The translations under genes were made by a program, and so were the position numbers. The notes under the pieces were generated by a model. It saw nothing but the letters and a program-made list of their open reading frames with translations. It ran no database searches and was not told the DNA's origin. Below are positions 660-50,608 of a stretch of 64,000 bases of DNA, piece by piece (the first letter of the stretch is position 1; the number at the start of each line of letters is the position of its first letter). Origin of the DNA: Botryllus schlosseri (Eukaryota); assembly GCA_051294905.1 (NCBI GenBank), contig CM119372.1, positions 29,390,001-29,454,000 of the forward strand, given 5' to 3'.

Positions 660-965
660 GTGTATCTCAAATCTCTTCTGTTTCAAATACAAGCAGTCCA
701 GAACATACAATACGGAATAGCTTGTTCAGAATATAGTTAAATGGCGAGTTTCACAAGATTGCTTGCTCGTCCGATATAGAAGTCGATTGGCGAGAAATGA
801 AACAGGAACCGTGAGACATGAAGAAAACCGAGAACGGACGCCGCGACAATTAAATTAACCAATCAAATTAAACAACAATCAATCGATTAGACGTAAAGAC
901 CGACGTGAAAACCGACTAGCCGCGAAATGCTTGTCGCCGAAATATCCGATTCCCGCGTCGCAATA
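660..965 (-). mobile_element. Probable 3' LTR of the BEL/Pao element (distal end uncertain)
   Basis: On the minus strand the polypurine tract AAGGGGGGGAGGA (about 966-978) lies just after the pol stop and is followed by TATTG (canonical TGTT with one change). The far end could not be fixed. Confidence 0.45.
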
Positions 966-7273: not shown

Positions 7274-7641
7274 AACTCTAATTGAGAATAGATAGTCCTA
7301 ATAGGGCTCCTTCGACGGAGAAGGTTTCCGACTCCTGAACTATAAGCGATATCAGAATACAAAAGAAAATGTCAACTTACGTGCCGAGACCATCATACAT
7401 CAGGTCACTAACTTCTCCTGTGATGACGCTGGTAGTTATGAACACTAAATTTAACCATCCCAAGTCTTTGCATCTCTGTGTTGCGCCTCCCCACATTTGG
7501 TCATTACCCGAATAGAATCCGTATATATTACCAGTTGTTTGACCTAGTGACCAGTAGACGTATTCATCCGCTGTAAAATTAATTAAGCATTAGAAGGGCG
7601 TGTTTTACATTGTTACGTCACTGATATCGTAACGATTGGAT

Positions 7642-28917: not shown

Positions 28918-30122
28918 TATTATGTGGTTTAAAATTATACACAGACCCGATTTGCAAGTTGGAGCTGTAACAGAATAGTACCCGTTTTCTGCTGCGACGC
29001 CCTATATTTTAAAACAATGCACATGAGTAGGCTACAGGCCCTAGCCTGTAGGCACCGCGCGGCACCACTAAGTGTCCAGAACATGAGCTTTAAATCTTTC
29101 ATCCTTAGCGCACTCATCAGAATCTTTCGTCGTCTTGTGTTCTCATTTATCGTGGATTTCACGAAACGCGATTTGATAAAAGTCGTTGCCCGGTCAGACT
29201 TTTCGGATTCGGACCTGACTATTGAAAGTATTCCTATCTTTTCGGGCTCGGAATGAACTAACGTTGGAAATATCATGCATGCATGGAAATCAATGGGTAC
29301 CCACTTTTAAAATGTTCAACAACCCCTGTAATAAGCTTGCCTTATCTTTTCTGTGACTACTGATCTAAGCCAACCTAAATTATTACCTAAAATAACCCCC
29401 CTAAACTAAAATACCATAAAAATTAACTCAACCATAAACCACCCACCAACCTTTTCAAACTAATTCACAATGCTCGTGTGCCGAACGATCGGTAATAAAA
29501 GTGACATTCTCCAATTTACATCCTTCCACATTTTACAACAATATTTTAAAAAATCGGCTAACGAGTCCATGCATGTCGATTTATTCATAGAGAATTATTC
29601 ATTAAGAAGATGCGCCTTTGATTAAAAATCATTAATTCTCAATAAAATTTTGAATTGCAGGTAAAGCTGAGAGGTCCGATATCTGATTTAGTTCGTCACG
29701 GCGCCATGGCTTCTTTCATGCTTCGGGGTGAACTAAAAAGGATTGAAAAGACGTTTATGGGTCAAGAATATGAACACTGGATATCTACTAAATGTCGATT
29801 CGATGGAGCGATGGTATTTTCGATTGAAATAAAAGAAATGAAATATTGCCTTCGTGTTTCATCGACATTGTGGTGGGGTGGAGAAAGAGACTCTTTCAGC
29901 CTCTGCTGGGTGTGGACTTTACACGGCGGATCAGTGCTCAATGATCTGCAAGATGGTTTTATTCCAGATCACCTTCAAGCTGCCCGGCTTGGAACCGGCA
30001 CTGTTTTGCTCACCACCGGCAAGGATGCAGAGGAGACAGCCATTGAGGTGTAACTACTAAGGTCGCTCTTAGTATCCTTTGGTCGAATTGGTTTTTTGTT
30101 CTCGGGTGACGAGTATGGATAA

Positions 30123-31500
30123 CAGTATTGTGATCAAGTCACTACATTCGAGTCACGAGTCATCTCGAGTCATTGCAGATTTTGACTCGAGTCAAGTCAA
30201 GTCACTCGATTTTCAAAGGTGATTCGAATCAAGTCAAGTCATCCGATTTTTGAAGGTGACTCGAGTCATGTCGAGTCAAGTCACGTCACGTCACGAGTCA
30301 AATCACTATAGTCGAGTCAAGTTGAATTTTCAAAGTACGATACGTGATTCAAGGTCATTGCATTTTGCTAACTGTTTTAAATACAGATGGGATTCCCATT
30401 TATTCTGAATCGAGGAACGAATAAAGAGTTGATTATACACGCAAGAAGGCGTTCTCTCGCTCATGCATACGTATAGAAATGTCAAACTACGCAAGCATAG
30501 CGGTATGGCCTCAGTCTATATCAGGGGTGGGAAAACTACGACTTGCGAGCCGCATGCTGATCTTTGAGTCTTTGATTGCGGCTCTTCAATGAGTTTGCAA
30601 TGTGCATTCGGTGATAATGAACGTAAGCCACTGTGCCTTTTCCGCCAAGATTCGCCCAATAATAATCACAAAGCTAGAATTTAAACCTCATTACGAAAAC
30701 AAACACCAAAACCTTAATTGCCAAGAGTTACCAAAAAATACATATTTACGGAGTATTATGATTACCGAGGTCCGCACTGTTTGAAGTCGATCAGTTCGAT
30801 TTCAAACACCTTGCAGCCTAGGTGGAGACGCATCGTCTTATACCACACAATAATAAACTTCATTCGATACCCAGCATTTCCTTGTGACGGAATAAATTAG
30901 TATATATAAATTTTTGTGTTGTGACTCTTTTAAGGCAAGGATTTTTGATATGCGGCTCGCGCGTGAACCAGCTCTGCCCACCCCTGATCCATAATTATTA
31001 GCCAAAATATAGGATAGCATATGAAGCATCAGAGAGTTCAATAAAATGATATGGAGCAATACCCTACTGGGGCCTACGACCCTACCCACATATATATATC
31101 CATGATATACAATTATAAACGTATGGACGATATTCGTTCGATTTATACAAGCAAGGGGGTTGGTTGAGGTGTGCAAGTTTACGAAAACGTAAGCTATAAG
31201 CTCCGATCACTGCGTTAACGATCAATTCATTAGTGATGCAACAATGCAGGCTCGGCACACTCAGTGAGTGATCGATCAACAATCCGAACTTATACAGGAT
31301 ACGGCGATCTAGTCGACATCGATTACTTGTTGACTTGAAATTGACTCGTAAATTTTGCTTTGAGTCACGAGTCAATCTGCATTTTTGAAGCGTCGAGTCA
31401 AGTCATTTTTGCAAAGTGACGCGAGTCAAGTCAAGTCATACGAAAAAGGTGACTCGAGTCTGACTCGAGTCAAGTCATGACTCGAGTCATCCCAACACTG
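30123..31500. mobile_element. GACTCGAGTC-array hAT MITE (family 2) in the terminal exon of copy A, with a nested Charlie MITE (30522-30986)
   Basis: TIRs CAGTATTGTGAT / ATCCCAACACTG; TSD ATGGATAA/ATGGATGA; reverse homologue of 42540-43444 and 61891-62804. Confidence 0.85.
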
Positions 31501-31518
31501 ATGGATGATATGATACAT
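31487..31518 (-). CDS. Copy A exon 6 (terminal coding part, DVSYHPSVLG*; stop supplied by the MITE)
   Basis: Acceptor ATATTCAG at 31519-31526 in compatible phase 1; homologous to the copy B terminal exon starting at 4240. Confidence 0.5.
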
Positions 31519-31556
31519 CTGAATATTTGACCTATTGGACTCATCTGACCGACCGG

Positions 31557-31936
31557 TGTAGGACGCCCTGAGCCCTCTCACGGTTCATACACTTTGTAAG
31601 ATACAATATCATTATAGTACATCGCCCACATCTGTATATCACGTGACTTAGATCTTTCTTCTCGCTACCACGTGACTTACCATTTATCAGCTCGTGCATT
31701 TCAATTACAAACCAGACTCATCTGCGATATCCTACTGTATATTCCATGCATATTCGACCAATATATCTATCTGAGGCAATCCTGTCGTTGCATTCACGTT
31801 GAAGTTGTCAGATCAAGGACTTAACGCAGGAACGTGCGTCTTACTACCCACGAGCTAAGTATATCCACCCAGCCACACATTACGTGGGACTCAGGTTACA
31901 ACTCTAGCACGTTATCAGACGACACATCCTTCTGCA
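31557..31936. mobile_element. Probable solo LTR (380 bp)
   Basis: TG...CA termini (TGTAGGA...TTCTGCA) flanked by a CCGG 4-bp direct repeat; absent from the equivalent copy B intron. Confidence 0.5.
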
Positions 31937-32479
31937 CCGGTAAGCTCCATAGCTAGTTTTAGTCACGCCGAAACCATCCCATAAATCGCTTATACGATTC
32001 TTAACCGGTCATCACTAAGGTCTTGATCGAACAAATAGCCTATGTGAGCTATTTTCAATGAAAAGTCGTATTTTTCATGATTCCAAGACTTATTTGCCTA
32101 GCGGACTCAGATTCTTGGTTATTGCGAGACTGTACCCTGATTTGCATATATTCGTGGCATTTGCACCCATTTTCAATTTTCCTGCCTCTTTGAAATGAAC
32201 TACAAGGCGATAAGATTTGAAGTTGGGTTTTATTGCTATATATTTCGAAATGAACCCGGGATTGAGATTTGAAAATGCATTCTAATCTCAAAATCGGCAT
32301 AGGATATGAGCTAAGAAGGTAATTAGGAATGAATGATTGAATTGACTGTGGCTGCGGATCTAACCGTACAGGTCCGTGTATACAAATGAATTATAAGATA
32401 AGTTCGAAGTGTGTACAAACGTATATTTCATGTGTTATTTTAACAACCAATTTTCGCCCAAATATACTTATAGATTTAC

Positions 32480-32767
32480 CTGTTATGTTAATAAAGGTGA
32501 CATATCCTCTCGACGGGCTGAAAATGTCATTGGCGGCGGAGCATTTATACTTCGCAGAGTCTTCCAGGGTGGCGCTTTTGATGATTAGTGTTGCCTTCCC
32601 TGGCTCAATTTTTTGAAGAGGTTCTTTCCAAATATTGTCCGTGGGTACGCCGTCCTGTCTCTGCCATTTGACGTTGACAGTCGAAACTCCAGATCCAGTA
32701 CATTCGATCTCAATCGTATCTCCGACTGTGTAATCCTTTCTACTGTTCGACAGAGCGAGAGGGAAAA
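32480..32767 (-). CDS. Copy A exon 5: immunoglobulin (I-set/C2-like) domain
   Basis: 288-nt phase 1-1 exon, CAG/GTAAAT flanked: FPLALSNSRKDYTVGDTIEIECTGSGVSTVNVKWQRQDG...ATLIIKSATLEDSAKYKCSAAN...FINIT (B-strand C, C-strand W, D-x-A-x-Y-x-C). Confidence 0.9.
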
Positions 32768-33119
32768 CTGCGTGTAATTGAGAACAATATGTTAAGCAGC
32801 GTCATAAAACTAAATAGGTATATGTGATTGGCCGAGAGAAACCATCGATACTGGTAATCGGCGTGTGTATCACAGAACTTCCAATTTTTCAAAACCAGAC
32901 TTGTTGCCTAGTTGAAGTATCCAGATATATTTTGTCGTCATGACATACTTGCTTACTAACGAAGCTCGCATATCACTTCAACATATATACTAGAGTCTAG
33001 ACCAGTGGTTCTCAACGTTGGCGATATTGCCCGCAGGGGGCGATTTGGCAGTCTAGGGGGGCGAAAATAACGAAGGGGGCGATAAGGGCGATAGCGCGTT
33101 AAGACGGCTATATTGGAGT

Positions 33120-33700
33120 CGGGACCGTAACAACCACACCCCAAAATTAGGGGCAAAAATTATATCGTGAATTAACAAAAATTGTAGTGTAATTTTTTAG
33201 AAATTCGTACAATTTTTTCCAAAGATTTTTGCGCTGCGCGCGATTTTATATTTTCATATATCTTGACTTTGTGGTACCCGTCCCCCAACAAAAATACGCA
33301 TGATTTATGGAAATGTAAGACTTCGGCGTCAGCCATTACTACGCCACGACGCACCAAGACATATGAAGTTAGAGGTCATGTAACATGCGACTCCGAGAAG
33401 TGTGCCAGAACGATCAGCAACGAGAAGACCTTGGCCGAAAAGGAATGCCCTTGTGCTGACCGAAAACTAAGATATGTATTCTTATACATATATGTTTAAT
33501 TGTCCATATGCGCCTCAATGGCTGGCATCGAATGTTCCTGTCCTAGCGACCTTAACCCTACAGGACAAATGCCATCCCGCAAAGAAAAAAATATTTACCA
33601 GTTAAGAAATACCAATTTGAAATCATGTGCGTCTCTTAGTTTGTCACGTTTTTGACGATTTCCATATCTGCTGATATAGCAGATATAGGAGGTCACGAGA
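33120..33700. repeat. Dispersed repeat family (reverse copy about 54760-55373; partial copies about 24060, 37410, 49848-50215)
   Basis: Long collinear similarity, e.g. ATGGCTGGCATCGAATGTTCCTGTCCTAGCGACC versus the reverse complement at about 54910-54945. Confidence 0.6.
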
Positions 33701-34280
33701 TAGCATCATGTAACTAAGTCAATATAACAACGATTCCGCCGCTGGTTGCTAGTTGATTTGACCAATAGATAACAATGAATTTTGATGTGAAATTTATTCA
33801 TATGCACAAATTTGAACATTCTACCAGAGTTGGAATCACGACGGCTGGTAAACTGAATTCAGATTTGCAGTAGGCCAAGGAGTTTCTAGTTATTCTAAAT
33901 ATTCATGTGGCATCCAAGTATATATTCAGTCACATATCAGATTTAGACTTGTATTAGGAAATGATATGAAACAAACAAACTCAAATTTTTACATTGGGTT
34001 CGAATCCATGGATCAAATGCGAAGCACGATGGATTTGTGAAAATATTGAAGAAACCCATGTATGGCGACAAGGCTTGGCGGGGTTGATATAGGAAATTGA
34101 GAGTTAGTATAATGCTCGTGCCTGCACGAGTAAACATGTCTAAAGTAATCATCTCCTACCATCTTCACACACGTAACTCGTCGATCCTTCGCAGTTGTCG
34201 GCGTTTAAGCAGTTATGCGTTCCATCTACCCAGTAGCCGACCTTGGAATTCCTAAAATTAAATCGAAAGTCATGCAGTCA

Positions 34281-34313
<33 letters not shown>

Positions 34314-34314
<1 letters not shown>

Positions 34315-35423
34315 GAAGCAACCGCCCGGATATAACCGTCAAACTAAAAAAGAAAAGAGAATGCTTATTCATTGAACTGGCTGTCCCAGCTGATCACAAC
34401 CTACTGCAAAAAGAATCAGAAAAACACTCCAAATACGCAGACCTCAAAATGGAATGTGAGAAAATGTGGCGATGCAAAATAAACATTGTACCGATAGTCA
34501 TTGGCGCTGCAGGGGTCGTGAGCAAAAAACTCATGAGACATATCCAACAAATTCCGGGTAACGTTCGATTCGACATGATCCAAAAGATCACACTATTGGG
34601 CACTGTGCACATTCTTCGGAAGGCCTTGAATGCACCACTGGACTAAAATTACACTTGTGAATCACAGCATGATTTCTGTAATTTCGATTCTTCACCTTCA
34701 ATTATCTCTACCTCTGCTCTGTAACCCGTGCCAATTCTTCATCTGCTGCAATTCTGTAATCTGACTTCTCCATGTATTGCATAGGAATATCAATTTGAAT
34801 GTAGGGTACTGAAATTTTAAAAGTTTACTCCAATCTCGCCATTTTCCTTTGGGGGCAGGCTGCTCCCCGGATTATGTGTGTATTTACCAGTTTTACTGTG
34901 AATAAAGAATATAATAATAATTATAATAATAATCTACCTCTGCTCTGTAACCCATGCCAATTCTTCATCTGCTGCAATTCTGTAATCTGACTTCTCCGTG
35001 TATTGCATAGGAATAACAATTTGAATGTATTACTGAAATTTTAAAAATTTACTCCAATCTCGCCATTTTCCTTTCGGGGGCAGGTTGCTCCCCGGATTAT
35101 GTGTGTATCTACCAGTTTTTACTATGAATAAAGAAGATAATAATAATAATAACCACTGGACTAAAATTACACTTGTGAATCACAGCATAATTTCTGTAAT
35201 TTCGATTCTTCATCTTCAATCATCTGTACCTCTGCTCTGTAACCCTTGCCAATTCTTCATCTGCTGCAATTCTGTAATCTGACTTCTCCATGTATTGCAT
35301 AGGAATATCAATTTGAATGTATCACTGAAATTTTAAAAATTTACTTCAATCTCGCCATTTTCCTTTGGGGGCAGGTTGCTCCCCGGATTATGTGTGTATT
35401 TACCAGTTTTACTGTGAATAAAG
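34314..35423 (+). mobile_element. Three tandem 5'-truncated R4/Dong-like (restriction-like endonuclease) non-LTR retrotransposon copies separated by (TAA)n
   Basis: 34317-34646 reads SNRPDITV...FIELAVP...KESEKHSKYADL...WRCKINIVPIVIGAAG...QKITLLGTVHILRKAL*. The 3' UTR ending AATAAAG is repeated at about 34647-34907, 34934-35133 and 35153-35423. Confidence 0.85.
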
Positions 35424-35440
35424 AATATAATAATATAATA

Positions 35441-35862
35441 ATTTATAGAGCGCCGAATATAACAATATGTCATTACTACACTAGGGCGCTGTACATAAAA
35501 GGCAATAAAATATAAAAGTAAACGATATGTATAAAAGACGAAGTGCATATAGTTGTAGGGCGGAATGAACACTACTCTAGTTCGAACGCTCGTGTGAATA
35601 AAACGGTCTTGATTTTGCGTTTGAAAACATATAGCGAGTCACATAGTCTGATAGAAATTGGAAGATTGTTCCACAGAATGGCGGCCGAGGAAGAAAAGGT
35701 TCTCACGCCGTAGGTCGATGTTCTGACTCTTGGAACTGACAAGAGCATTTGTTACTGAGAACGTAGCGCTCTTCCGGGATTATACATTGTCACTAGCTCA
35801 CGAAGATACGCTGGTGCACTTCCCTCCATGCATTTGAAGACGTACAGAAGAAGCTTGTATTC
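35441..35862 (-). mobile_element. 5'-truncated L2/CR1-group LINE 3' end
   Basis: Translates EYKLLLYVFKCMEGSAPAYLRELV...LRS...VPRVRTSTYGVRTFSSSAAILWNNLPISIR...FKRKIKTVLF; the end GCGCTCTATAAAT runs into a (TTA)n tail. Confidence 0.85.
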
Positions 35863-38800
35863 ATGAACAGTGATCAGCTGTAACTCTTCCAAAATGCGTG
35901 CGCATACGGTATTTTACATCGGCACCGCCGTGTAGAGTGAAGTGTACCCTTACTACACAAAAGTAGATATCCGAAATTTTACCACGATGTCCACGGTGTT
36001 CCTTGATTTATTCCTATCCAGCCGCGTCCTTGTAAGCATTTTACCCCGAGTTCAAATTCTCATTTTTTCCTGCGCCGATCTGTGTTTAGATTACGTTTAC
36101 TTCGCTCACCAGTTAATGCTTTTTTCGATTTTCGCAATTACGGCATCCGAATCCACCACAGCAAGTCTGAACCCGTCCTTTTTACAACCGCTTCTCGCCA
36201 TCTCCTGCGTGCCTTTCTCGACGTCAAATTTTCGGATTGAGAAGAGTCTGTCGTCAATCTGACTCCTTTTATATTCGGACGGTTCTACAAGCAAAAAGGG
36301 TTGTATTTGAATCAGTTGCCGTTGCGACGAATCGAGATTATTCAACTAGATCAGGGGTTCTCACTTCTCAACCAGTGAGAGTTCTCAAGTGGTGAAAATT
36401 TAGTTAAATTTGTCTTGTTATTCGCTCTAAAATAGGTTTGCTGTTCATAATATAGAATTATAAGTCGGCTGCATAAAGCTTTTCATATGACTATGATGAA
36501 ACCTATTGGCATGTATGGAGTGACAATGTCGAACATGAAAGGGGGGAGGGGGAACGGCAGCTTTTGTTTCCCGGCTATGACAATCTACAGCTAACAGCGA
36601 CAAAAGTAATTTCGATTGTATAACAACTGCAAGTCAATACTCAAGTAACCAAGTATTACGGCAGGGTCCATGGCCATGCAAGTGCATTGGCATATGCCGT
36701 TGGAAAGGGCGTGTACCGTGTGAAGTGCATTAAATTTGGACGGAAGCGTATTTGATGTAGATTCGAGGTACTTACTTAGGAAGGTCCTGTTATTGTAACA
36801 GAAAAATAGCCATAGTTGCAAATTTTATCAATTATCAACTTCCTGTGAAACTATATACGGCACCACCGCAACGAATCGTGATGGATTGAGGATTAAGTGC
36901 AATAGGCCTGCATTGTCCGGCCTTGAAATCATTAAACATAATGCAAGAGTTACATGAATTGATTGTATCATTGAATTGAATACTCTGAGATCACAACTTC
37001 ATTAGGTGATTTCGATCCGACCATCGTCGCGCGAGGACGTCTCGAGGCAGCTTTAAATATTGCACAGGATTTGTGCAGCTATAGCATGAAAATCCGATCT
37101 TATGGAACTCATTTTTCTTTGTTCGTGGCGCACAAAGCCGGAAACCGCGAAACTCGCCATTATAATATTAATATTAATATTAACTTCAGTAGGTACAAGA
37201 AATACTGTGTACATTGCACGATATTAAAAATTGTTTTCTCCACTTCACCAAAAAATTGTTTGAAGCGGGCTCAAATTGTTTATGTCATTACCCACCACAG
37301 TGGAACTAACAATCCAATCACACAGTGGATTCAGTGTGTTGATGATTAAGTTTCGCGACGTTAGTGAACAGCGAACGGCCCCAATGTATACAATGGTTTC
37401 ACGATCTGCCAAGGCCGTAACTGCCGTGCCCAAAACCCTCAATTGAGGGGAGATCGAAGGGGCCGAAAATTATTTCGTTGGTCTTTTGTCGGAAAATATT
37501 TAGTCAACATTAAAAATTTTGTCGCGCTTCTCGCGATTTCATGTTACTAGTGGCATAGATTTATATGACTAGTAAGAGAAAAGGTACGTATTTTGAAGAA
37601 ATAGATTTATTTGCGCAGGCGATTATCAACGCATCAAACAGAACTATTATATGAGGCGGGCCTTAGAACAATTTCAAACCGGGAAATGGGCCACGGCCAG
37701 AAAGGGGTTGAAAACCCCTGAACTGAACTCGTAGCTTCATATGTTTTGTTTTCTTTTATGTCCACTATCTATCTTATATGAAACCGTAGAACTCACACTT
37801 TGGTGGCGAGATAGCGCCAGAGGTGGTCTGTAACGAAGCACTTCTACTTATTTGAAGTACTCAAGTAGTTTTCCTCTACTGCTGGTACTTACTCGAATAG
37901 ATTTCATTTTCGCTACATTCACTTCTACTTCGTAATATTCTGTGATCTACTTACTTACTTTTCGATATTTTCAGTTTGTCAAGTAGAAGTAGTTTAATCT
38001 TACAATTAGGAGGATAGCCTGAGGAATTTCGAGACTGTTTTTCTGAAGTATTCAACTGTCATAGAAGTGTAAAGCCCAGAATTTTCGTCGTGCTTCGCGC
38101 TCAGTTGATACAGAGTAACCATTATGATTTCACGAAAGTATAAAATATATAATTTATATATTATAGGTAGTGGGTTGGCGTGGTTCCTTTCACACTTCAT
38201 TATCGCCCTCCGCTCACATGGAATATTTAATGACAGTATATATGGCTCATCATAACGTTTGTAACTCATGTTTCGAAATCTAGCATTAATTTATCATATC
38301 GTAATTCAGCAGTCTATAGCGTGTCCTAATCTGGAAAAGTAGACTCTGACTTTTTTTAGTTATAGAGTTTTTAATCATACCACCTCAAAACCTTCGAAAC
38401 TTTCTTCTAGACTTAAGACACGAAATGCATATAACGTTTTTAGAAGTAGTATATATATTTCACTTTCAATTCTCAGTATCATTGACTTCGGGTTCTAATT
38501 AATATCAGTTCTTTTGTCTGGAGAACATACATGTTTTTGCTTTTATACTTCATTTCCGAAAATAAAGTTAAATATGACATTTTTACGATCCACCATCCAC
38601 GATCCACGATCCACCATCCACACATCCACGTAAGCGGTGTCTTACAAAAAGCCTCAAAGTTGGCCGCGCTACAAGTCGGCAGATACGGATACAAAAATCA
38701 AAAAATCGGCCTGGGGTTAAATGACCATTGTAGTCGACAAACACCATGAATACCCCAAACAAACACACTTTATGTTGCAAATTATCATACCTACATATAA

Positions 38801-39051
38801 AGTAGTTAGATCTATCATAATTCACAATAATATCTACCAAATCCAATAGCCATGGCGAGATATAAAAATTATTGAACTGATCGTGTTGATTTGTTCTACT
38901 ATTGCGAATTAATGAAAGTGGTTACTTTTCGGGCTGCTACCACCTCTACTGCTTTACGTTCATATTTCACGCTCTAGGATTGTTGAGTATGAAATATAAC
39001 TTATTGCGTCATTTCCAGCAAATCGTTTCGTATCGGGCGAATATTATTCAC

Positions 39052-39167
39052 CTTGAAAGCAAATGAAGGGTTGCTCACGCCCGCAGTCAATATCATTCCA
39101 CGTGTTGAATGGCCACTCTAAGGCAGCGCAATCTTCCTTTCTATGGTTATCCGGCTGACTCGGTCCC
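39052..39167 (-). CDS. Copy A exon 4: C-type lectin domain C-terminal part (QPD...WND)
   Basis: 116-nt phase 2-1 exon, TTTGCAG/GTGAAT flanked: (W)GPSQPDNHRKEDCAALEWPFNTWNDIDCGREQPFICFQ. Confidence 0.9.
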
Positions 39168-39600
39168 CTGCAAATTAGAACATCGCTAACATCTTTTTGT
39201 TGATATGTAGTAGTCATTTTGAGGGATCTGAGAATATGGATAAAGATGTACTTAAAATGAGATACTTGCGACGCCACACTTGGATGGAATAGGACCCTCG
39301 TAGGGAAAACAATACATATTACCACGCAGCGTACTGGTAGGTTATACAGCTGCAACACCTATGTGTAGCTTTTTCGACTTCGGCCGCGTTCGACTCCAGA
39401 ACTTTTCGCTTAATGTTGGAGGTGTGAATGAACATAAATAGCAAAAACAACCACTTCAAAATGGTACTTCTAGAAGCTACAACATGTTTCACTACCGGCG
39501 CATGCCGTCAGAATGTTTTACCAGCTTGCACCCAACGACTTTGGAAATCCTCGCTTTTCGTTTTCACTGTTCGTTTGGTTTTGATTACCAAACTCCCAAG

Positions 39601-40201
39601 CAGGGTTGTAATGACTCGAGTCATGACTCGACTCGAGTCCGACTCGACTCACGTTTTTCAGATGAGTCGACTTGACTCGAGTCATTTTCTCAAATTACAG
39701 AAATGACTCGAATCGACTCGAGTCAATTTGTGTATTGACTCGACTTGGACTCGAGTCATTGCGCATGACTCGAACCAAGTCATATGACTCGAGACTCAGA
39801 AGACCAAGACCGACCTTTCATTGTAATTTCGAGGAATAGTAAAGCAATGACACTATTGGGATTTCGTCTATTGGTACTGGTACTTGAAAATGCGCCCAGA
39901 AACTGCTAAAATGACGGAAATTAGTATATTATAAATGCGAACCATTCGATATCACTTAACAGAGTTACAAAAAGTGGATTTAACAAGCCTTTAACTGGAA
40001 ACTCGGCAGTCAACACAATGACTTTGACTCGACTCGAGTCATAATACCATGACTCGGACTCGACCCTCAGCTCGGTGACTTGAACTCGGACTTGACTCGG
40101 TGGTGGTGGTGAATTGAAAATGACTCGACTTGACTCGAGTCAAAACTATAAAACTGACATTGACTTGTGACTCCGAGCATTGTGACTTGTTTACAACCCT
40201 G
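39601..40201. mobile_element. GACTCGAGTC-array hAT MITE (family 1)
   Basis: TIRs CAGGGTTGTAA / TTACAACCCTG; perfect TSD CTCCCAAG. Confidence 0.88.
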
Positions 40202-40659
40202 CTCCCAAGTAAGACTTCAGATGTTACTACGACATAGACTCTGGTATTTTAGAGTCCTTTTTCGCCGGACAATCGAGACATCAACATAATTCACTTCACA
40301 CCAGTGACGTGAAATCATATAAAATGGTGTAGCTAGATTCACCTCATAGCCTATATATAGTAACTGGTATGGCAGATTTGTGGCAAGAAATGAGAACTAC
40401 TTTATTTGCACAGAAATTCTGAAAATATGACGAATCCACGTTTTTGTTTACAATATAGATTCGGAGCAAATTCCTACAATGCCATATACAATATTCAACG
40501 CTTGCCTTGATCTATTATTTATAATACTCAGCCAGTAAAGTAATCCTCAAGTCATGAGCCGAGACTCTAGAGTCGTAGTTGGACAGATTTTTACCATCAG
40601 ACTGCCACGAGAGCCGCTGTAAGGCCTATCTTCAAGGATTTGGCAGTACCTGTACTCAC

Positions 40660-40758
40660 CAATTTGTATATCCGGAAACTGGAGTGCCATCATTCCAGAG
40701 CCACCTGCCTTCATTGTCGAGATCATTCATGCCGATTATTGGGCTCCAATAATAAGCA
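40660..40758 (-). CDS. Copy A exon 3: C-type lectin domain middle part
   Basis: 99-nt phase 2-2 exon, TTTCAG/GTGAGT flanked: AYYWSPIIGMNDLDNEGRWLWNDGTPVSGYTN(W). Confidence 0.9.
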
Positions 40759-40943
40759 CTGAAATTTAAAAATACTTTCAGGGTATTGATGATGCAGAAA
40801 AAAAAAAATTTTAATAGAGGATTCATTTATCCTGGCAATCATGGGCGGTAAGGGGGCTTGTGATCAAAGGGCTTGATAAATCCTTATTTAGAAAGCAACA
40901 TGGAGCGGCATCCTATGATTTAAAATATCTCTATGCTTATTAG

Positions 40944-41116
40944 CACTGTTCCCTCTTAGCTGCGCGCGTGCGCGGCAGCGCGCAGAAAAATATGTGCTAT
41001 CCCCGAAAAAGCCGAAGTGATGACCTTTTTTATAGTCGTTACGCAATGCTGTCTAAGAGATCGCGCAGTGAGATGGTGAGTGCGCGCAGTGTCATGAAAA
41101 TTTAGAGGGGACATTG
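40944..41116. mobile_element. Short hAT MITE
   Basis: CACTGTTCCCTCT / AGAGGGGACATTG termini; perfect TSD CTTATTAG. Confidence 0.75.
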
Positions 41117-41466
41117 CTTATTAGTTGGGTTTTTTTGAGTCGTCACACCTAAGTGCTGGCCCGAAACTAAAATTAGCTTCTTTTACTATGAGCTGTTTAT
41201 TGCCAACGAGTTGAAGGTAAAGGTGTCATGATAGACTCAATAAGAGTACTTTCAAACTTCTGATACAAAAATTTCAGTGTGCTAAAGGTCGTTTAGTCAG
41301 GATCCGACTATTCCTCGTTTTGGCACGCTATAACATACTTTTCATTGCATGCCCAATTCGATCTCGCCTTCCGTGACATGCCACCTCATTTTTGTCGCGT
41401 GCTTTTTTAAATTAATTTCTTTTCTTTCACTGTGCTGTGCATGTCTCCTCTTTACATTGCCTAGGC

Positions 41467-41769
41467 CAGTTGTTCTCAAAGTGACGGGCGCTACCGCGTG
41501 AAAGCATCTGAAGAGGGCGCGAAGATGCGTTCAACTGAAAAAATTCGCGCTTTACGTGATTTACCCCCGACTCGTAGTTATTGCTCTGTGTATAATCCTA
41601 ATTTCAGAGTTAAGAATTGTCTCATTCACATTCATAACCATCCATGCAATCAAACTACCCGTTGGGATTGCTAGCATTCTGGCTGCATTTTCTGAAATGA
41701 CGATAAGGGAGCGCGAACGTTTTCACTATCATAAAGGGGAGCGTGTCTAAAAAAGTTTGATAACCACTG
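41467..41769. mobile_element. hAT (Charlie-type) MITE
   Basis: CAGTTGTTCTCAAA / TTTGATAACCACTG; TSD GCCTAGGC/TCCTAGGC. A related repeat near 51640 shows the empty site. Confidence 0.75.
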
Positions 41770-42123
41770 TCCTAGGCCAAGGTGGTTTTCTGATTTCAAG
41801 GACTAGTCGTTTCGAGACCCTTCTATCTTTTCATTGTATCGCCATTTTTGCGGTGTATTGAACTGATGAAAATTGCTAATAACAAACCAAATACCGATAT
41901 CGAAACGCCCCAGTCCAGTCTATCCAGGGGTGTACTGGTCCACTGGCCTAGGCCAAGGTGGTTGTCTGATTTCAAAGACTACTCCTAGTCGTTTCGAGAC
42001 CCTTCTATCTATTCGTTGTATTGCCATTTTTGTGGTGTATTGAACTGATGAACATTGCTAATAACAAACCAAACAATAATATCGAAACGCCCCAGTCCAG
42101 TCCATCCAGGGGTGTACTGGTCC
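41770..42123. repeat. Two-copy tandem duplication (about 178 bp) of a dispersed repeat
   Basis: CTAGGCCAAGGTGGTT...GGGGTGTACTGGTCC occurs twice; related copies at about 44370, 51645 and 60330. Confidence 0.75.
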
Positions 42124-42539
42124 GCCCTCAAGATTAACGGTCCACGGCCTGACCTTTCGATCTCGTCTACCTCGACATGTCACCTCACTCTTCCGCTTGC
42201 TTTTTATTTTCTTTTTCTTTTACTGAATGCCTCCTCTCCATCGTCTATGCCACTGGTCGGAAACCTATGGCTCGCGAGCCATATATGACTCTTATGGGTA
42301 TAAGATTTCTTTGTCAAATATTTATTTTTATACTGAATTGATCAATATTGCTGCGACTTGTTAGTAAATTTTCATCACGGCTAGAATAATTACTACCGCG
42401 GCAACATGTATATGAGATCGGACCCCCTCTTTTTGAAATCCTTAAATTTAAGTTACTGTTGCGCCGGCGGCGAATATCACTAACGAATTTGATTCGAAAT
42501 CTTTGATTGCGCGATACGTTAGTTGATCAAAGATAGTAG

Positions 42540-43444
42540 CAGTGTTGGGATGACTCGAGTCACCTTGTTCGTATAACTTGACTTGACTCGAGTAACTTTG
42601 ATAAACTGACTTGACTTGACTCGGCGTATCCAAAATGTGGATTGACTCGCGACTCAGAGCAAAATTCTCGAGTCAATTTCAAGTCATCAGGTAATCGGTG
42701 TCGATAAAAATCGCTGTATCTTGCATATGGTCGGATTTCCCGCGAAACGCTGGAATAACCCGTGAGAGCGACTAATCATTCAATGATCGTGCGTTTCAGT
42801 GAGCCTCCAATGTTCTGTCACAAACAAATTGACCACAAACGCAGAGATCGATGCTTATAGCTAGTACAGTAAAGTAATTTTATAGCAAAATGTCTACTTC
42901 TGTTCTCTGTCCTTACCTTAACCCAACCTCTTGTTTTACTGAAATTGAATTCGAATATAGTTTATATAGTCATCAACCATCGGCACAGGCTCTAATTGTA
43001 TCATATTATATCATATCAATTTGTAAAATGTTATGTATTGCATCATATCAATTCGTTTCTCAATTCTCTATTTTGGCTGGTACCTATAAACTTAGCCTAT
43101 GCAATTACTTACGTAGTTTAGCAGTTCTACGTATATGTGAGCGTGCATATTTAACTCTATATTCGTTCATTGGTTCAGAATCAATGACCAATCAATCAGT
43201 ATTATATCAATCAGGTAGCAAAATGCAATGACGTAATCATGCCTCATAACTCGAGAGGGCAACTTGACTTGAATTGTGACTTGACTCGTGACTTGACTTG
43301 ACTCGAGTCACCTCCAAAAATCGGGTGATTTGACTTGAGTCGAGTAACCTTCGAAAATCCATTGACTTGAGTTGACTCGAGTCAAAATGTGCAGTGACAC
43401 GAAATGACTCGTGACTCGAAGGTAGTGACTTGATCCCGATACTG
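42540..43444. mobile_element. GACTCGAGTC-array hAT MITE (family 2)
   Basis: CAGTGTTGGGAT / ATCCCGATACTG; near-TSD GATAGTAG/GAGAGTAG. Confidence 0.8.
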
Positions 43445-45474
43445 GGAGAGTAGTGGACATAACGACGGCAATATGATAACGCAGGTATCAAATACACATC
43501 GTATTCCTGATCTTCGCCGTGAAATCAACTGCTGTGGACGTGACTTTCAGAATTACAAACTCGAAATCTAAACAACGCCTTATCCACGTTCTTGATTAGT
43601 AAGGGTAGTTGTGTAGTACCGGCGATAAAACTCATGTTAACTCATGTTACATGATACCGCCGAATACTTTGAGAATAGAGAAGTCGATCAGTATTTACAT
43701 TTTCGGAATCAGTGCGGCAGTTACATCGAATTAATATCAGTTATAATAAATTCTAAGATATTTACGATGAATTGCGTTATCAATGGTGAGGCTTGGCTGT
43801 GCCTTACCTGTGGTTTCACGCTTTATTTAGGAAAAATAAATATTCAAATTGCGTGCATTTGGGAGAAAAATGTTCAAAATCTAGTTTTTCATGAACATCA
43901 ATAAAAAATACCAATGGTAAATATTGCTTTCACAATTTTCGTTCACTCATCCTGACGACAGGGGAGGCACTGCCTCACTTGACTCACCTGACTTCACGTC
44001 ACTGATGTATCAAAATTAAAGTGAGTATGCCTATACTGCTGTAGTGACCATGTTTGGCTTCACCTAAGCATGTGATCATGGGTTCTCGCATTTAAAAGGA
44101 CCATCACGACGAACCTACGTTCTCGTATACCTCAAGTTTCGCATGCTCAAATAAGGCAACCAGCATAATTAGTAGGCTTACGAGTTTTTACGGAGGAAAT
44201 GTGGCGCACACGATGAATCCCGTGTAAGTGAGTTCGAATGAGTGCTACCATGACGTTAGGAATTTCTAACTGTGACGTAACAGCTGATTGGTGTGTATGG
44301 TTCTTTGATAGTTAAAATGAAAAAAAAACGGCCAATATGACTCTTCGGTGAAAAAGGGTTCCGAACCCGGCCTAGCCCAAGGTGAATGTCTGATCTCAAA
44401 GACTACTCCAAGTCGTTTCGTCACCTTCCTATCTTTTTATTGTTTCGCAATTTAGTTGTGTAGGCTATTGAACTGAATAAAATTGCTAATAAACCGATCC
44501 GACATAGATGAAATCAAATGTAATATTAAAATGGAAAATCATTTCATTTCCAGGACTAAACACAATCGGTTGCTGTCTTGTTAGCTAGCCGAAATACAAA
44601 TAAACATGTACGCGAGTAAGCCGAGTATGCTGAATTCGTTTTGAACGAAATTTTCTCGTTTTCATGAAAGTTGTCATGATGAAGATGAAATATCCGAAGC
44701 GTATTTTCATGTGATAACTTCCCATGTGTTGTCCGAGGCGCCATATTATATCATAAATCATAGTATCCTACAGTGGCGTGGGCTCAACCAAATCGTATTA
44801 GGTCACTGATATTGGATGCGTCATTCTCTCAATTTGACGAAAGGAAATTTTCATCATTACTTCGTTTAGCTTGCAGAGAAAAAAATTTGATAGAAATAAG
44901 TATTATTACATTTTGCTATATATCCTGTTATAGGCCCCGTTACTCTCCAAATTGAGCCTCGGATTTTGCAATTAGACAACGTTAGCAGTGATACGCAATA
45001 ATGCCATCTTGAATAATGATGTCGCCACTCAGGAGCAAGTGAGCAACGGTGCAGCTAGTGTAAAAGTGAGAGTGCTCAATCGCCGACTCAGTAATGGGCA
45101 ATACGCTTGGGTTTTGCGCCGCAGCTCATCAACTCCTGATCTCCAGCATCGTTATTCAAGATGCCAAATTTCGTCACAATGAAAAATTCGAGACTGATTT
45201 TGGGGGTGATCAAGGGCCTCTAACAGAATAAATTTTATTTGCTGTAATCAGTATGGCGGTAGTTTTCGATTGATATGAATTTCATCAAATTTTGATATTC
45301 GCAAACCAAAGTAAATAGTGTCGTAAATTGCCCTTGGTCAAATGAAGAGAGTGACACTGATTTCCTTGTGTCCACACCACTGTGGGGTACTATGGTAGGA
45401 CAATATGATCATAATATTTCAGCGTGAATAAATTTCAATTGCACATGATAATATTTAACACGCATGCTTTTAAA

Positions 45475-45985
45475 TAGGGCTGGGCAAAATCGAGTACCTG
45501 AGGGATTCGATTCTGAATCACGTAATATGCTTCGAGTCGAGTCGAGTAATCGTGTATAGCTCATTATGGCGTCATAATAGAAAGTAATACGTCAAAGCTC
45601 AAATATATACCGTTTATGCCACCACAAAGAATATAATGCCTGTTATTCATTTCATAAATGATCTTTTGGTATTTTTTGGACCATGCCAATTTCATTCCAC
45701 CTGGTGACAACTGTGGGATAATCATGAATTCGGAAATATGCTACGTCCAGTAACCTTTGTGGCGTACTGCATGTTTCGTATGCTACGATACCGCCAATCA
45801 AGGTTTTAAGTCTTCAACAGTGAAATAAGCAACGAAACTATAATTCTCGTTGATAAATCAACTCTCAGTGGCGAGAAGCGTACAATTTCAGTACTCGAAA
45901 AAATCGTATTTTACTACTCGACTCGAATCAATATAATTAATACTCGATTCAGATTCGAGTACTCGAATCATTGTACCCAGCCTTA
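45475..45985. mobile_element. hAT (Ac-type) MITE
   Basis: TAGGGCTGGG / CCCAGCCTTA termini; perfect TSD CTTTTAAA. Confidence 0.8.
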
Positions 45986-46213
45986 CTTTTAAAACAATAA
46001 AATTTGATTAAAGGGATAGAAATGATTACCAACCTCTGGTCTCGTTTATTGACACAATGAACTTTAAATGACGTCAATGGCTTGATTCGGTTTGTCATCA
46101 AATTTGAAATGCAACATTCACTGTAATCCTAGGCTAATTGATTACGAGTGGTAGGCATTAATTTCCTGTTTATTTCAATGTGAATATAATATTTAATTGA
46201 ATATAATATATAA

Positions 46214-46858
46214 CAGGGGTCGGTAACGTATGACTCGCGAGCCATTTACGGCTCTTTTGATGATTTATATATGGTTCTCCTATTTTCAATTCGACACTTT
46301 ATTCACATCGTATTTCTGCAACCTATTTGCCAATTTACATGACGGTGAGGATCATTACTCTGATGGCAGCTGTTGTTTTAATGTATTCATGGCAGCCGAA
46401 ACGAGTGTATGTGACATGAAGACAGTTTCATATCCGGGATTTTAGCGGCTCGGAATACGCCTTTCAAAATCCTAAATTTTATGTTAGATGTTGCCTGATG
46501 ATGATTGTTCATTTAAATCAGTCCAATATAACAGTTTATTTCTATAATTGGGCAACACGGTCATTTACGGTTCCGCACCGGACACGTCTCATTCGTTGGA
46601 TTCGATGCGGGGTTTGTGTAATTGCAAATGCAAAGTTGCGGTCGAATCGACAACCAATATATCGCGCGCGAAATCGCCGTAGCTGACATCGCACGCATTG
46701 ATATACTGGATTGCACGATGCTTTGATTGATCGGAAAGAAAGACGAGGCGACGCTCGTATGGCAATGCGGTTTTCAAATCCACATTGTCTACCTGATCAT
46801 CGGCGAGAAATGAACTCTCTTGGAAGTGACATTACTTAAAAAACGTTCCCGACTCCTG
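46214..46858. mobile_element. Degenerate Charlie-type MITE
   Basis: CAGGGGTCGGTAACG / CGTTCCCGACTCCTG termini; TSD not recognisable. Confidence 0.6.
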
Positions 46859-47367
46859 ATGCATCGTATAATTATCAGTTGCTTTTTCGATACTCCGATT
46901 TAACTCGCTATGAACTCGCTGTCAACGATGATCCGTGTACATGAATCGAAAGCGAATATTAATTGTAAAGATTCGAGACGAACAGCAAGAGACAGCTATT
47001 CCGATATGTAAATTATACGATTATTTTCTCAAGGAGCTATATTTTTCCCAGCGACTAATCTCGATTCGAAATTGCTCGTGGGTACTGTGCTACTCAGTAT
47101 CCAGCCGTCAAAGTATGAATTACTAACGGGATCATCGTTACGAATTTCGAGCTATTTGAGTTGTGAAATAAAAGTGGATTTGTGAAAATCGGCTATGCTA
47201 CATGTAGCGATTGCACCTCAACACTATGAAGTTTGATAATACGGGGATTATAGGGCTCCCCATGAATGAAAATCTGAAATATAGTCTGAATATGACTCCT
47301 TTGACGAAGGAGGTTTCCAATCCCTGGAATAGTGGACATCGGTATTCAGAAAAAAATGTCAACTTAC

Positions 47368-47557
47368 GTTCCTACAGCTTCATACATCAGGTCATAAACC
47401 TCCGAGGTGACATCTGCGCTCTCTATAAACACCAAATTTTTCCAGCCCAAGTCCTTGCATCTCTGTGTTGCCACTGCCCACATTTCATTACTTGTAGTAT
47501 AGAGCCCATAAAGATTACCAGTTGTTTGACCGACCGACACGTAGAGGGGCTCCTCCG
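47368..47557 (-). CDS. Copy A exon 2: C-type lectin domain N-terminal part
   Basis: 190-nt phase 1-2 exon, TTACAG/GTAAGT flanked: EEPLYVSVGQTTGNLYGLYTTSNEMWAVATQRCKDLGWKNLVFIESADVTSEVYDLMYEAVG(T); paralogous to 7381-7570. Confidence 0.88.
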
Positions 47558-49100
47558 CTGTAATTCAATGCGGCATTAGAACGGCATGTTCTGTATGGTT
47601 AGTGGTTACGTTACTCACATCGTAAGGATTAGAAAATGAGAGAGCAAATATTTCCCAATAAATAATTTAGCCTATGGCATCATGAAAGCCTCTCTCTCAT
47701 GAAATCTTTCTCTAACGAAGAGTTAGTTGTTCACACAAATGCGTACTTTTATGATTTACAGGATTGACATTGAAGTTGTGCCGTTTGACTGAGGTAAATT
47801 ACGGTTGTGCAACACATCCTGAATGTTCATGAGACTTTCACGGAAATCGAGCCATTGTGAGATGATATTTAGGATTTTTCCTTTTATCCAACCGTATATG
47901 GGCCGGAGAGTTCCGAATATCAATTTCGATCTGGTCGTAATAAGATAAAAATTCATGAATCTGATTTTGAATTGTAAGCTCGCATATATATGTGGAACAA
48001 AATCTTGAAATATATGATAAAGTCACACCGTGCGTGAAAATGCATTGCATGAGACAGCTCAGCATGGCGCATGAGATAACAACATGTTAATGCTACATTA
48101 AATAATAAATGGAGAGTGGCCTCTGGTAATGTATGGCACGTGTGTGTGTTCACTGTTCACGGTGTTTCAACATATATACTAATGTAAGACCTTGGTAGCT
48201 TTCACATCCTATTTAACGTCCACTTGCGAATGAACATAACTTTATCAGTTACACGAGCTTTCGAAGCGCCGCTCCTTCAATTGGTGTTAAAGCGAAAATA
48301 ATGCCAAAAGAGCAACGCAAAAAGATTTTCAATTTGAACATATGCATATTATGACATCACAGGAAATAAGAATTTTTAGATTCCAGAGTCGCGTACTTTA
48401 TGACGTCAAAGACACTAATATCAAGTTGATATTCGAAATTCATGGGATCACAACTTACTGCATGTATTTCGAATATAAACTTGATTAGCCCTGACGTCAC
48501 TAATATTGAATTGTGACGTCACAGTGGATAAACATTTACAATTGAAGATACAAGGTAAAAATGGCTCCTTTGACGAAAAGAGCTTCCGACCACTGTCATG
48601 AACAGACCAGAAATATTTTTAACCAGGTCTACATCGTTGTGCAGGATTTCCACGGCCGGCGGTCATCATCATCAGAACAGCCATTCCGTACCTATATTTA
48701 CTTGCTATATCTGATGAACCGACGACGATTCCGAGGGTTCCAGCCTTTCCATATCGTATACATCGATCAGATTGGGTGCAAATTATCTGTGGGTTCATTC
48801 TATATGTTTTTCGAAAGTATTTACGCAATTATGACATGATTATACAACGTTTTAAAAAAATGTTCTTCTAAAAAGGGCATTTGTTTAAAACATGTTTGAA
48901 ACGCCGTTTGTTTTAAATGCAAACCTAAATCTATAGTGATAAAAAACCGACAAAAATTTGCATCAATTAGGAATGGATTCTGGAGTCGACCTCCGTCGGA
49001 CTGGAAACCACGATTAAACGATGGTGCAGTGGGGAGATATTTACGAGATAACACTGCACTGCTAATCATAATCTTTTGAAAACAACAAAATCATGCATAC

Positions 49101-49152
49101 CTTGAGCGATGTTGGCACCGAAAAGTAGAACTACACTCAGTACCACTATCAT
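49101..49152 (-). CDS. Copy A exon 1: signal peptide
   Basis: ATG in AAAGATG context, MIVVLSVVLLFGANIAQ(A), and a phase-1 GTATGC donor compatible with exon 2. Confidence 0.8.
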
Positions 49153-49268
49153 CTTTGTTTGGATTATTTATTCTGTAACGATTCATCCAAATTAATTAAT
49201 TTTGGGCAGAATGAGAGACGGTCGCTTATTGTTTCAGACTGAGCCAACGCCACGCCACAACACTTAAG

Positions 49269-50608
49269 TAGAGATCGGGGCAAAGTGCGGCCGCGGAGCT
49301 ATTCTGAGCGGCCCGCGTGCCCGTTGCTTGGAATTCAAAACATAAAACACACTTTTGAAAATTGCTGCGTGGAATAAAACCATAGGCTGTATAAACTGAC
49401 TGGAACGGAAATTGGTTTACTTTGAAGCCTTTTCAGTGTGCATGTGCAATGTACAAAATATGCCGCGATTACGCAGCATACTTCCCGCGCAGGTTCGCAT
49501 ACGTAATCAAGATTCAAAATAAAGTCAATGTAACAAAGTATGTCATAATAATTAAAGTCACAAGAAGTCACCCTACTCACATAGTTTAGTTCAAATAAAG
49601 ATTACTAACCTACAGAGATTAGTTATCACTATAGTGAAAACGTTTTTGTTGCCATTGTCACATTATGCATTACACGTTCTGTGCTTCAAATTATTTCGTC
49701 ATAGGCTTCGTTTCCAAATATATATTCCGTAAAACGATTCAATCAGTGCTCGTTTTTACTGTGAGACATCATCGTCCATAAAAGATGAACAGACATGTCA
49801 AAAAAAAGCCGAAAGCTGAAATCCAAAGACGGCATGGAGCACTAAACACAGGGAGGTTAGGGTGCGGCACTAAACACACCAATTGGAGGGGGCCCGAGCT
49901 CAAAGGGTGCCAAAAATTAGTTGGTATATTGACATAAATTAGAGTGTTTTTCAGATATTTATAAAAAAAAATCACATTTTCTTCGCGCTTCGCGCGATTT
50001 ATCGTGGCTAGATGTCTTCGTATTTGTTAGGGTTCTTTCCTCATCAGCATTTCGGCGCCAGCCGTTACCGCATTACGGCTCACCAAGACGTTGAAAATAA
50101 CGTTTCAGCTAACATGTGACTCTGTGAAGTGTGCTGCCACAAATGCCGGCGGCGAGGAAACCGCGACCAAAAGTACCGCCTAATGTTGGCCGAAACCGTT
50201 ATATATATATATATAGTATAGCCTATATGTCGATTTCATCAAGCCGCAACTGTTCGGAAGGCAGCGATCAAGACAATAAGCTTTGTAGTATCCCAAATAC
50301 ATTGTAAGGTCTCAATATAAAGACGTGGTGGCTTGGAGAGAATCTAAAATGTATCATGTTTAACATTGTTTCGAATTATGACGGAAAATAAATAGATTAT
50401 TGTGTTTTGTTAATTAACCGTCCTTTTCTCATTATCTATAATATAAACGCATCCGCTGAGCAGCATTTATTAACAATGTAATTCACTGCTTTCAATTTAC
50501 AAATCAAAATAATACACTGGATAATATTCCTAAACATTTCGACTAGGCCCGCCAACGTATTTTCTATTATTCAGTTGGCCCGCGGAGAGAATTAATTGCC
50601 CACCCTTG
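49269..50608. mobile_element. Degenerate Charlie-type element with a nested repeat
   Basis: GGGGCAAAGTGCGGCCGCGG...GCGGCCCGCG start and GGCCCGCGG...TTGCCCACCCTTG end; boundaries approximate. Confidence 0.5.

What the first reader, a model, noticed from the sequence alone, without database searches (positions are those of the whole stretch)
31487..49152. Hidden six-exon gene for a secreted C-type lectin-immunoglobulin hybrid protein
Seen: six minus-strand exons (49152-49101, 47557-47368, 40758-40660, 39167-39052, 32767-32480, 31518-31487) have canonical splice sites and matching phases (1,2,2,1,1). They join into about 258 aa: signal peptide, short-form CTLD with four Cys, QPD and WND, then one Ig domain and no transmembrane segment. 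The ORF track largely misses this gene. Established: QPD+WND is the galactose/GalNAc-type Ca2+ site. From memory, a CTLD+Ig architecture was reported for BSCLT of the ascidian Botryllus schlosseri; orthology is unchecked. Inference: a soluble pattern-recognition molecule with a sugar-binding head and an Ig module, comparable to the IgSF-lectin hybrids of molluscs. PIIGM replaces the usual WIGL motif.
Basis: partly seen in the sequence, partly recalled or inferred. Interest (0 to 1): 0.75.

Follow-up and report, generated by a model that had tools for sequence, protein, structure and literature searches.

The report
Secreted double-lectin immunoglobulin-domain gene

Summary
The gene is real, but the six-exon model is wrong. 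Five of six exons are confirmed. Transcript data place two extra exons, 36284-36110 and 34251-34160, between exon 4 and the Ig exon. They encode 89 residues that look like a compact C-type lectin domain: four cysteines kept, long sugar-binding loop missing. A better last exon, 29732-29716, is inferred from a decayed paralogue at 7570-3721 but is not shown by reads. Revised product: 8 exons, 342 aa, 38.3 kDa: signal peptide, canonical QPD/WND lectin domain, compact lectin-like domain, I-set Ig, short tail, no membrane segment. The most likely role is a soluble Ca2+-dependent bridging lectin (opsonin-like); a developmental humoral factor is the main rival. Lectin-then-Ig soluble proteins are known (Botryllus BSCLT, 1997). 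Orthology could not be tested, because no BSCLT sequence or close homologue was retrieved. The new element is the middle loop-less domain. Verdict: new variant of a known kind, moderate interest.

The parts
49101..49152 (-). Exon 1 coding part: signal peptide (aa 1-17; likely cleavage after Ala18, by the -3,-1 rule from my own knowledge)
   Evidence: Phase-1 GT donor; the only hydrophobic 19-mer of the protein, KD 1.87; X1 joint 47559/49104 (table 5c)
47368..47557 (-). Exon 2: N-half of canonical CTLD1 (Cys51)
   Evidence: X1 contig piece; alpha-1 motif at aa 47; no Pfam hit alone
40660..40758 (-). Exon 3: CTLD1 core strand (PIIGM in place of WIGL) and long loop
   Evidence: X1 piece; joint to exon 4 in X1 and 2 X6 reads; Lectin_C E 0.076
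39052..39167 (-). Exon 4: QPD, WND, Cys127/142/150
   Evidence: Lectin_C E 4.2e-6; PDB hits are C-type lectins; X1 piece
36110..36284 (-).
   Evidence: Joints 36284/39052 (X1) and 34250/36109 (X1, 8 X6 reads from 6 starts); Atlas Lectin_C clusters, score 0.91; motif test
34160..34251 (-).
   Evidence: Joint 32767/34160 in X1, 1 X6 read, 2 X10 reads; spacing
32480..32767 (-). Exon 7: I-set-like Ig domain (Cys264, Trp276, Cys317; one N-glycosylation sequon at Asn335)
   Evidence: Pfam, PDB sequence hits, Atlas, X1 piece
29716..29732 (-). Exon 8 (inferred): five-residue tail and stop; 3' UTR follows
   Evidence: 25 of 26 nt identical to the paralogue from the acceptor on, the one change synonymous; most pyrimidine-rich acceptor of the gene; not shown by reads
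29580..29585 (-). Candidate poly(A) signal, 131 nt after the stop, shared with the paralogue (3591)
31487..31518 (-).
30123..31500 (.). Non-autonomous DNA transposon with terminal inverted repeats and an 8-bp target duplication (hAT-like, label from my own knowledge) in the last intron
   Evidence: Other copies at 61891-62804 and 39601-40200
7381..7570 (-). Paralogue remnant: copy of exon 2, open, 37 of 62 aa identical
4479..4766 (-). Paralogue remnant: copy of the Ig exon, about 80% aa identity, one in-frame stop
3721..3737 (-). Paralogue remnant: copy of the inferred terminal exon

Best explanation
An eight-exon gene encodes a secreted 342-aa protein: signal peptide, canonical Ca2+-dependent C-type lectin domain, compact (long-loop-less) CTLD-like domain, I-set Ig domain, short tail. 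Shown: seven exons on one transcript contig; lectin and Ig domain identity; all usual Ca2+ ligands in domain 1. Inferred: the last exon; secretion; the fold of domain 2; the function. Most likely mechanism: domain 1 binds galactose-type or broader glycans on microbes or cells through Ca2+. Domain 2 cannot bind sugar by the Ca2+ mechanism and acts as a spacer or dimerisation surface. The Ig domain binds a host-cell partner. The protein thereby bridges glycan-bearing targets to blood cells, like an opsonin. It is probably a relative of Botryllus BSCLT (about 60%, untested).
For: Transcript: (contig of X1, plus junction reads in X6 and X10, both on record as RNA, from different studies). Domains. 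Ca2+ ligands Q118, D120, E125, N138, D139 (site 2) and D93, E97, N121, D126 (site 1) are present (assignment by my knowledge of mannose-binding protein). Domain 2: Atlas features match Lectin_C clusters (0.91; 19 of 30 hits; family on 24% of members of the top cluster). A recalled alpha-1 motif matches both domains and 1 of 200,000 shuffles of domain 2; with the C3-C4 motif, 0 of 200,000. In both domains a phase-2 intron lies 7 codons before the WIGL-equivalent. No hydrophobic segment after aa 20 (max KD 0.72). Functional precedent: crayfish PcLec3, whose Ig binds haemocytes and whose full-length form promotes phagocytosis (PMC4944128, abstract and Discussion). QPD often means Gal/GalNAc (PMC9630629, passages).
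Against: No functional, tissue or induction data for this gene. Expression is low in the three raw-read runs: at 32541, 16 reads in X6, 4 in X10, 1 in X4. Domain 2 has no Pfam hit in either exon, no PDB sequence hit and no pairwise similarity to domain 1 above shuffles (1245 of 2000 reach the score). The motif used was recalled and chosen after seeing the sequence, so its shuffle count overstates the case. The terminal exon is the best-conserved 26-nt window but is not significant after a crude correction (0.001 per window, 0.58 over all windows). PcLec3 has the reverse domain order, and its knock-down did not change clearance. The Trp and Gly-rich loop that give strong galactose selectivity (recalled; search found no paper) are absent.
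Confidence: 0.55

Rival explanations
1. Same protein, but a non-immune humoral or matrix factor that controls cell adhesion, growth or differentiation, like the tunicate lectin TC14-3.
For: TC14-3 of Polyandrocarpa is a Ca2+-binding, dimeric humoral factor regulating proliferation and adhesion in budding (PMC3293724, abstract). The Ig domain's PDB matches are I-set-type structural and adhesion proteins (titin, Dscam, contactins). No immune data exist here.
Against: TC14-3 is a single small domain (recalled). The one tested CTLD+Ig-only protein I read about is an opsonin.
Confidence: 0.25
2. The 89-aa middle segment is an unrelated small disulphide domain or spacer, so the protein is simply CTLD-spacer-Ig.
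For: No Pfam, PDB or pairwise support. The single-sequence model of exon 5 shows two helices only, pTM 0.30.
Against: Atlas result, cysteine order and motif match, shared intron position. The N-half of the undoubted domain 1 also has no Pfam hit, and the same single-sequence method failed on the plain Ig domain (pLDDT 44.9).
Confidence: 0.17
3. One reading: exons 5-6 are skipped and/or the transcript ends in the exon at 31518, which takes its stop from the transposon or from the insertion-free allele.
For: Exons 5-6 form a phase 1-1 cassette of 267 nt, so skipping keeps frame. The contig has exactly 18 unplaced letters after the Ig exon. 195 joints were not displayed.
Against: No such joint among the 15 shown. 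Weakest acceptor (6 of 14 pyrimidines). With the element left out, the region shows no coding signature against the paralogue: mismatches 16, 16 and 12 by codon position, plus frameshifting gaps.
Confidence: 0.13
4. The gene continues to a further exon with a membrane anchor and encodes a cell-surface receptor.
For: The 3' end is not shown by reads. 8 of 501 phase-1 acceptors between 32479 and 7601 open a hydrophobic stretch (KD at least 1.6).
Against: None of these has RNA or paralogue support that I saw. The paralogue shares a stop-bearing exon and a poly(A) signal.
Confidence: 0.07

Closest known systems
BSCLT of Botryllus schlosseri (Pancer et al. 1997, PMID 9212174; paper not held; seen only through passages of PMC4944128 and PMC7916673)
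   Same: Soluble; CTLD N-terminal, one Ig C-terminal; intermediate (I-) type Ig. From memory BSCLT is 333 aa and 38 kDa, close to 342 aa and 38.3 kDa here and too long for two domains alone.
   Different: The passages I read mention no second CTLD. Sequence identity could not be tested. A recalled 'Greek-key' pattern said to mark BSCLT does not match here (both pattern and claim are recalled).
Crayfish PcLec3 (PMC4944128; abstract, Discussion, passages)
   Same: Secreted protein with one Ig and one CTLD; bridging-opsonin model.
   Different: 252 aa, two domains, Ig described as variable-like; no middle domain; arthropod, probably convergent.
Biomphalaria CREPs / BgSel (VIgL family; passages of PMC4944128 and PMC5433772)
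   Same: Plasma proteins that combine Ig and C-type lectin domains.
   Different: Ig N-terminal and CTLD C-terminal, the reverse order; internal repeats between the domains in CREP2.
Compact CTLDs, e.g. Link modules (PMC9630629, passages)
   Same: Long loop absent: 3 residues from the WIGL-equivalent to Cys2, against 35 in domain 1.
   Different: No Pfam hit of any kind for exons 5 and 6; it sits next to a canonical CTLD in a small secreted protein. The review names only Link and bacterial domains as compact.
TC14 lectins of Polyandrocarpa (PMC3293724, abstract)
   Same: Secreted tunicate Ca2+-binding lectins.
   Different: No Ig domain (recalled); TC14 was not among the 36 PDB matches to exon 4.

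Membership tests
Canonical C-type lectin CRD (domain 1) | Four conserved Cys and long loop | tested here: met
   Cys51, 127, 142, 150; 35-residue loop; Lectin_C
Canonical C-type lectin CRD (domain 1) | Ca2+ site 2 motifs QPD/EPN, Glu, WND | tested here: met
   Q118-P-D120, E125, W137-N-D139
Canonical C-type lectin CRD (domain 1) | WIGL core motif | tested here: inconclusive
   I88-I-G-M91: Trp replaced by Ile; the review says CTLDs 'may contain' it
Canonical C-type lectin CRD (domain 1) | Ca2+-dependent sugar binding | not testable with these tools
   Needs a glycan array
Compact CTLD (domain 2) | Long loop absent, C1-C4 kept in order | tested here: met
   Cys186, 225, 231, 239; 3 residues after WVDG
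Compact CTLD (domain 2) | CTLD fold or profile match | tested here: inconclusive
   Atlas 0.91 to Lectin_C clusters; no Pfam or PDB hit; model of one exon uninformative; the spliced domain was not folded
I-set Ig domain | B-strand Cys, C-strand Trp, D-x-x-x-Y-x-C, profile match | tested here: met
   Ig_3 44.4 bits and I-set 42.4 bits above cut-off, V-set below; motifs
BSCLT orthologue group | CTLD N-terminal, single intermediate-type Ig C-terminal, soluble | tested here: met
   Order and Ig type met; solubility predicted only
BSCLT orthologue group | Sequence orthology | not testable with these tools
   No BSCLT sequence retrieved
VIgL CREP | N-terminal Ig, C-terminal CTLD | tested here: not met
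   Reverse order

The most novel reading that the evidence does not exclude
A sea-squirt-type soluble lectin in which a duplicated CTLD lost its whole long loop, independently of vertebrate Link modules, and sits on a skippable phase 1-1 exon pair. The sugar-binding head stays nearly invariant between individuals (2 differences in 407 nt) while the loop-less domain and Ig vary (26 in 464 nt). The protein would then be a constant glycan sensor with a polymorphic Ig-side recognition arm, and BSCLT would turn out to be a three-domain protein whose middle domain was never recognised.
Probability: 0.2. Interest if true: 0.62.

Novelty: new variant of a known kind. Interest (0 to 1): 0.36.

Why it matters
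Soluble lectin-plus-Ig proteins are cited as innate forerunners of antibody-like bridging, but the tunicate example seems to rest on one 1997 cDNA: the any-case search for BSCLT gave 1 relevant paper of 3, and 3 papers cite its title. This locus gives a transcript-supported exon structure, adds a probable loop-less CTLD between the two modules, and shows a paralogue decaying next door. It makes the domain-by-domain test done for crayfish PcLec3 possible in what appears to be an invertebrate chordate. It does not reveal a new kind of system.

Tried and rejected
Homologue searches found no close relative. Ig exon against longer proteins: 0 of 268 candidates passed. Exon 2: 0 of 7. Exon 4 region: no candidate. 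phmmer over 1.84 billion representatives listed only multi-Ig proteins of 25-38% identity among the best 150 of 1253 hits. Metagenome scans: 0 of 235 for the Ig exon; 3 of 235 for exon 2, all 14-15-residue matches, taken as chance and not read. All these searches used single exons, so they are weak evidence of absence. The run search listed no holder on record as RNA; only 4 of the 24 runs were laid. No whole genome is held, so family size is unknown. Single-sequence folds of exon 5 and of the Ig exon were low-confidence and were not sent to fold search. No CTLD was found among the 150 fetched proteins, so no local profile could be built. PDB hits of exon 2 to designed beta-propellers are sums of 3-4 bit repeats and were rejected. 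The strong X4 signal near 31607 comes from the opposite mate direction to the gene's few X4 reads and every read differs from the window, so I read it as a repeat, not a 3' UTR. The idea that X1's Ig variants come from the neighbouring paralogue was rejected: 4 of 14 listed variants match it. No signal-peptide exon, and no copy of exons 3-6, was found for the paralogue. The one supplement of PMC4944128 held no BSCLT text; its alignment figure may be an image I could not see. Paper searches for a tandem-CTLD plus Ig protein in tunicates listed no title or abstract opening that describes one; most listed papers were seen as listings only, and subscription journals are not held.
Full report
Observation. 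The six exons join as stated into 258 codons with canonical splice sites. The window is 40% G+C, rich in repeats, and carries introns, so it is an animal genome. Earlier scan notes call this genome sea-squirt-like. Those are unchecked AI notes and I did not identify the species.

Transcript evidence changes the model. I laid 4 of 24 listed runs on 29600-49500 at 90% likeness. One contig of X1 (1047 nt, depth 59) holds, in order, the Ig exon, a 91-nt piece, 36109-36284, exon 4, exon 3 and exon 2, and a joint to 49104 in exon 1. The tool only guesses that X1 is RNA, but the contig skips GT-AG introns. Runs X6 and X10, on record as RNA, add junction reads: 32767/34160 (1 and 2 reads), 34250/36109 (8 reads from 6 starts in X6) and 39166/40659 (2 reads in X6). 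The joint 36284/39052 is seen in X1 only. So two exons were missed: 36284-36110 (175 nt) and 34251-34160 (92 nt), phases 1-2-1, 89 codons, no stop. A direct exon 4-to-Ig joint is not among the 15 joints displayed, of 210. Skipping would keep frame and is not excluded.

The last exon. Related copies lie at 39601 and 61891. A decayed paralogue helps: exon-2 copy 7570-7381, Ig copy 4766-4479 with one in-frame stop, and no copies of exons 1 or 3-6 found. Downstream of its Ig exon it matches 29774-29499 at 70%. The best-conserved 26-nt window (25 identical, the change synonymous) starts at an acceptor at 29733 and gives a five-residue tail, a shared stop, and a shared AATAAA about 130 nt later. I put the new exon at about 75%.

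The protein is 342 aa, 38.3 kDa, pI 4.6, and hydrophobic only at the N-terminus. Domain 1 (aa 19-152) is a canonical short-form CTLD with Cys51/127/142/150, QPD, E125, WND and the usual site-1 acids; Ile replaces the Trp of WIGL. QPD often marks Gal/GalNAc binding (PMC9630629, passages). The Trp and Gly-rich loop behind strong galactose selectivity are missing, so selectivity may be modest (recalled; search found no paper). Domain 3 (aa 242-337) is I-set-like Ig.

Domain 2 (aa 153-241) is probably a compact CTLD. For: Atlas features point to Lectin_C clusters (0.91; a lead, with the family on 24% of members). A recalled alpha-1 motif matches both domains and 1 of 200,000 shuffles. Four Cys lie in CTLD order. 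Only 3 residues separate WVDG from Cys2, against 35 in domain 1. A phase-2 intron lies 7 codons before the WIGL-equivalent in both domains. Against: no Pfam or PDB hit, no pairwise similarity to domain 1 beyond chance, and an uninformative model. The motif was chosen with the sequence in view. The spliced domain was not folded, so its fold is open. I put it at about 80%. It lacks the Ca2+ motifs and cannot be a classical sugar site.

Mechanism. Most likely the protein is secreted, domain 1 captures glycans through Ca2+, domain 2 spaces or dimerises, and the Ig binds a host cell, linking target to phagocyte. This rests on analogy with crayfish PcLec3, where Ig bound haemocytes and only the full protein raised phagocytosis, though knock-down did not change clearance (PMC4944128, abstract and Discussion). 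The main rival is a developmental humoral lectin like TC14-3 (PMC3293724, abstract). Expression was low in the raw-read runs (16, 4 and 1 reads at 32541 in X6, X10 and X4), and their tissues are unknown.

Comparison with what is known. BSCLT of Botryllus has a CTLD and an Ig at its N- and C-termini (PMC4944128, passage) and is soluble with an intermediate-type Ig (PMC7916673, passage). I could not read the 1997 paper. No close homologue was retrieved, but the queries were single exons. CREPs have the reverse order. PMC5465252, PMC514892 and PMC10433773 were read as passages only and showed no three-domain protein of this kind in those passages. Degenerate CTLDs are common in invertebrates (my own knowledge; one Atlas hit cluster is mostly nematode), which tempers the novelty of domain 2.

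Variation. X1 differs from the window at 2 of 407 nt in exons 2-4 but at 26 of 464 nt in exon 5 and the Ig exon (Fisher p 7e-6; exon 6 was not displayed). Of 14 listed Ig variants, 9 are synonymous, so a haplotype boundary explains this as well as selection does. Between paralogues the pattern is reversed: exon 2 is 60% identical and the Ig about 80%. The Ig copy has a third-position excess (13, 7, 28), so it was functional for much of its history.

Verdict. This is a new variant of a known kind, and possibly the known BSCLT with an unrecognised middle domain. Interest 0.36.

Noticed in passing
window 7570-3721, minus strand: Decayed tandem paralogue: exon 2, Ig exon (one in-frame stop) and terminal exon remain; exons 1 and 3-6 not found; direct splicing would be out of phase. 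It could be a broken allele or an assembly gap rather than a fixed pseudogene.
   Followed up: yes
window 107-736 (+) and 991-2667 (-): SAP-domain gag-like ORF, and an integrase ORF with DUF5641 (BEL/Pao-type retrotransposon, label from my own knowledge), on opposite strands.
   Followed up: partly
window 11545-15363: 3.8-kb DNA transposon with 152-nt inverted ends (98%) and two overlapping long ORFs (469 and 358 aa, minus strand) without a convincing Pfam match.
   Followed up: partly
window 49153-49172: An AG acceptor lies 20 nt before the ATG, and the X1 contig extends at most about 17 nt past the ATG: an upstream non-coding exon or a spliced-leader acceptor is possible.
   Followed up: no
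window 31557-31899: About 340-nt segment with TG..CA ends, present in many reads that differ from the window: possibly a solo LTR.
   Followed up: partly
window 34284-34646 and 34634-35442: A 120-aa ORF that looks like the C-terminal endonuclease end of a non-LTR element (my reading; no Pfam support), next to AAT repeats and a duplicated 226-294 nt unit, directly upstream of exon 6.
   Followed up: no
window 24817-25339, 30123-31500, 39601-40200, 42552-43444, 61891-62804: A family of non-autonomous elements with internal short repeats; 8-bp target duplications were checked for three copies; very abundant in RNA runs.
   Followed up: partly
window 32480-47557: Differences between run X1 and the window are rare in exons 2-4 and about 5.6% in exon 5 and the Ig exon.
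   Followed up: partly
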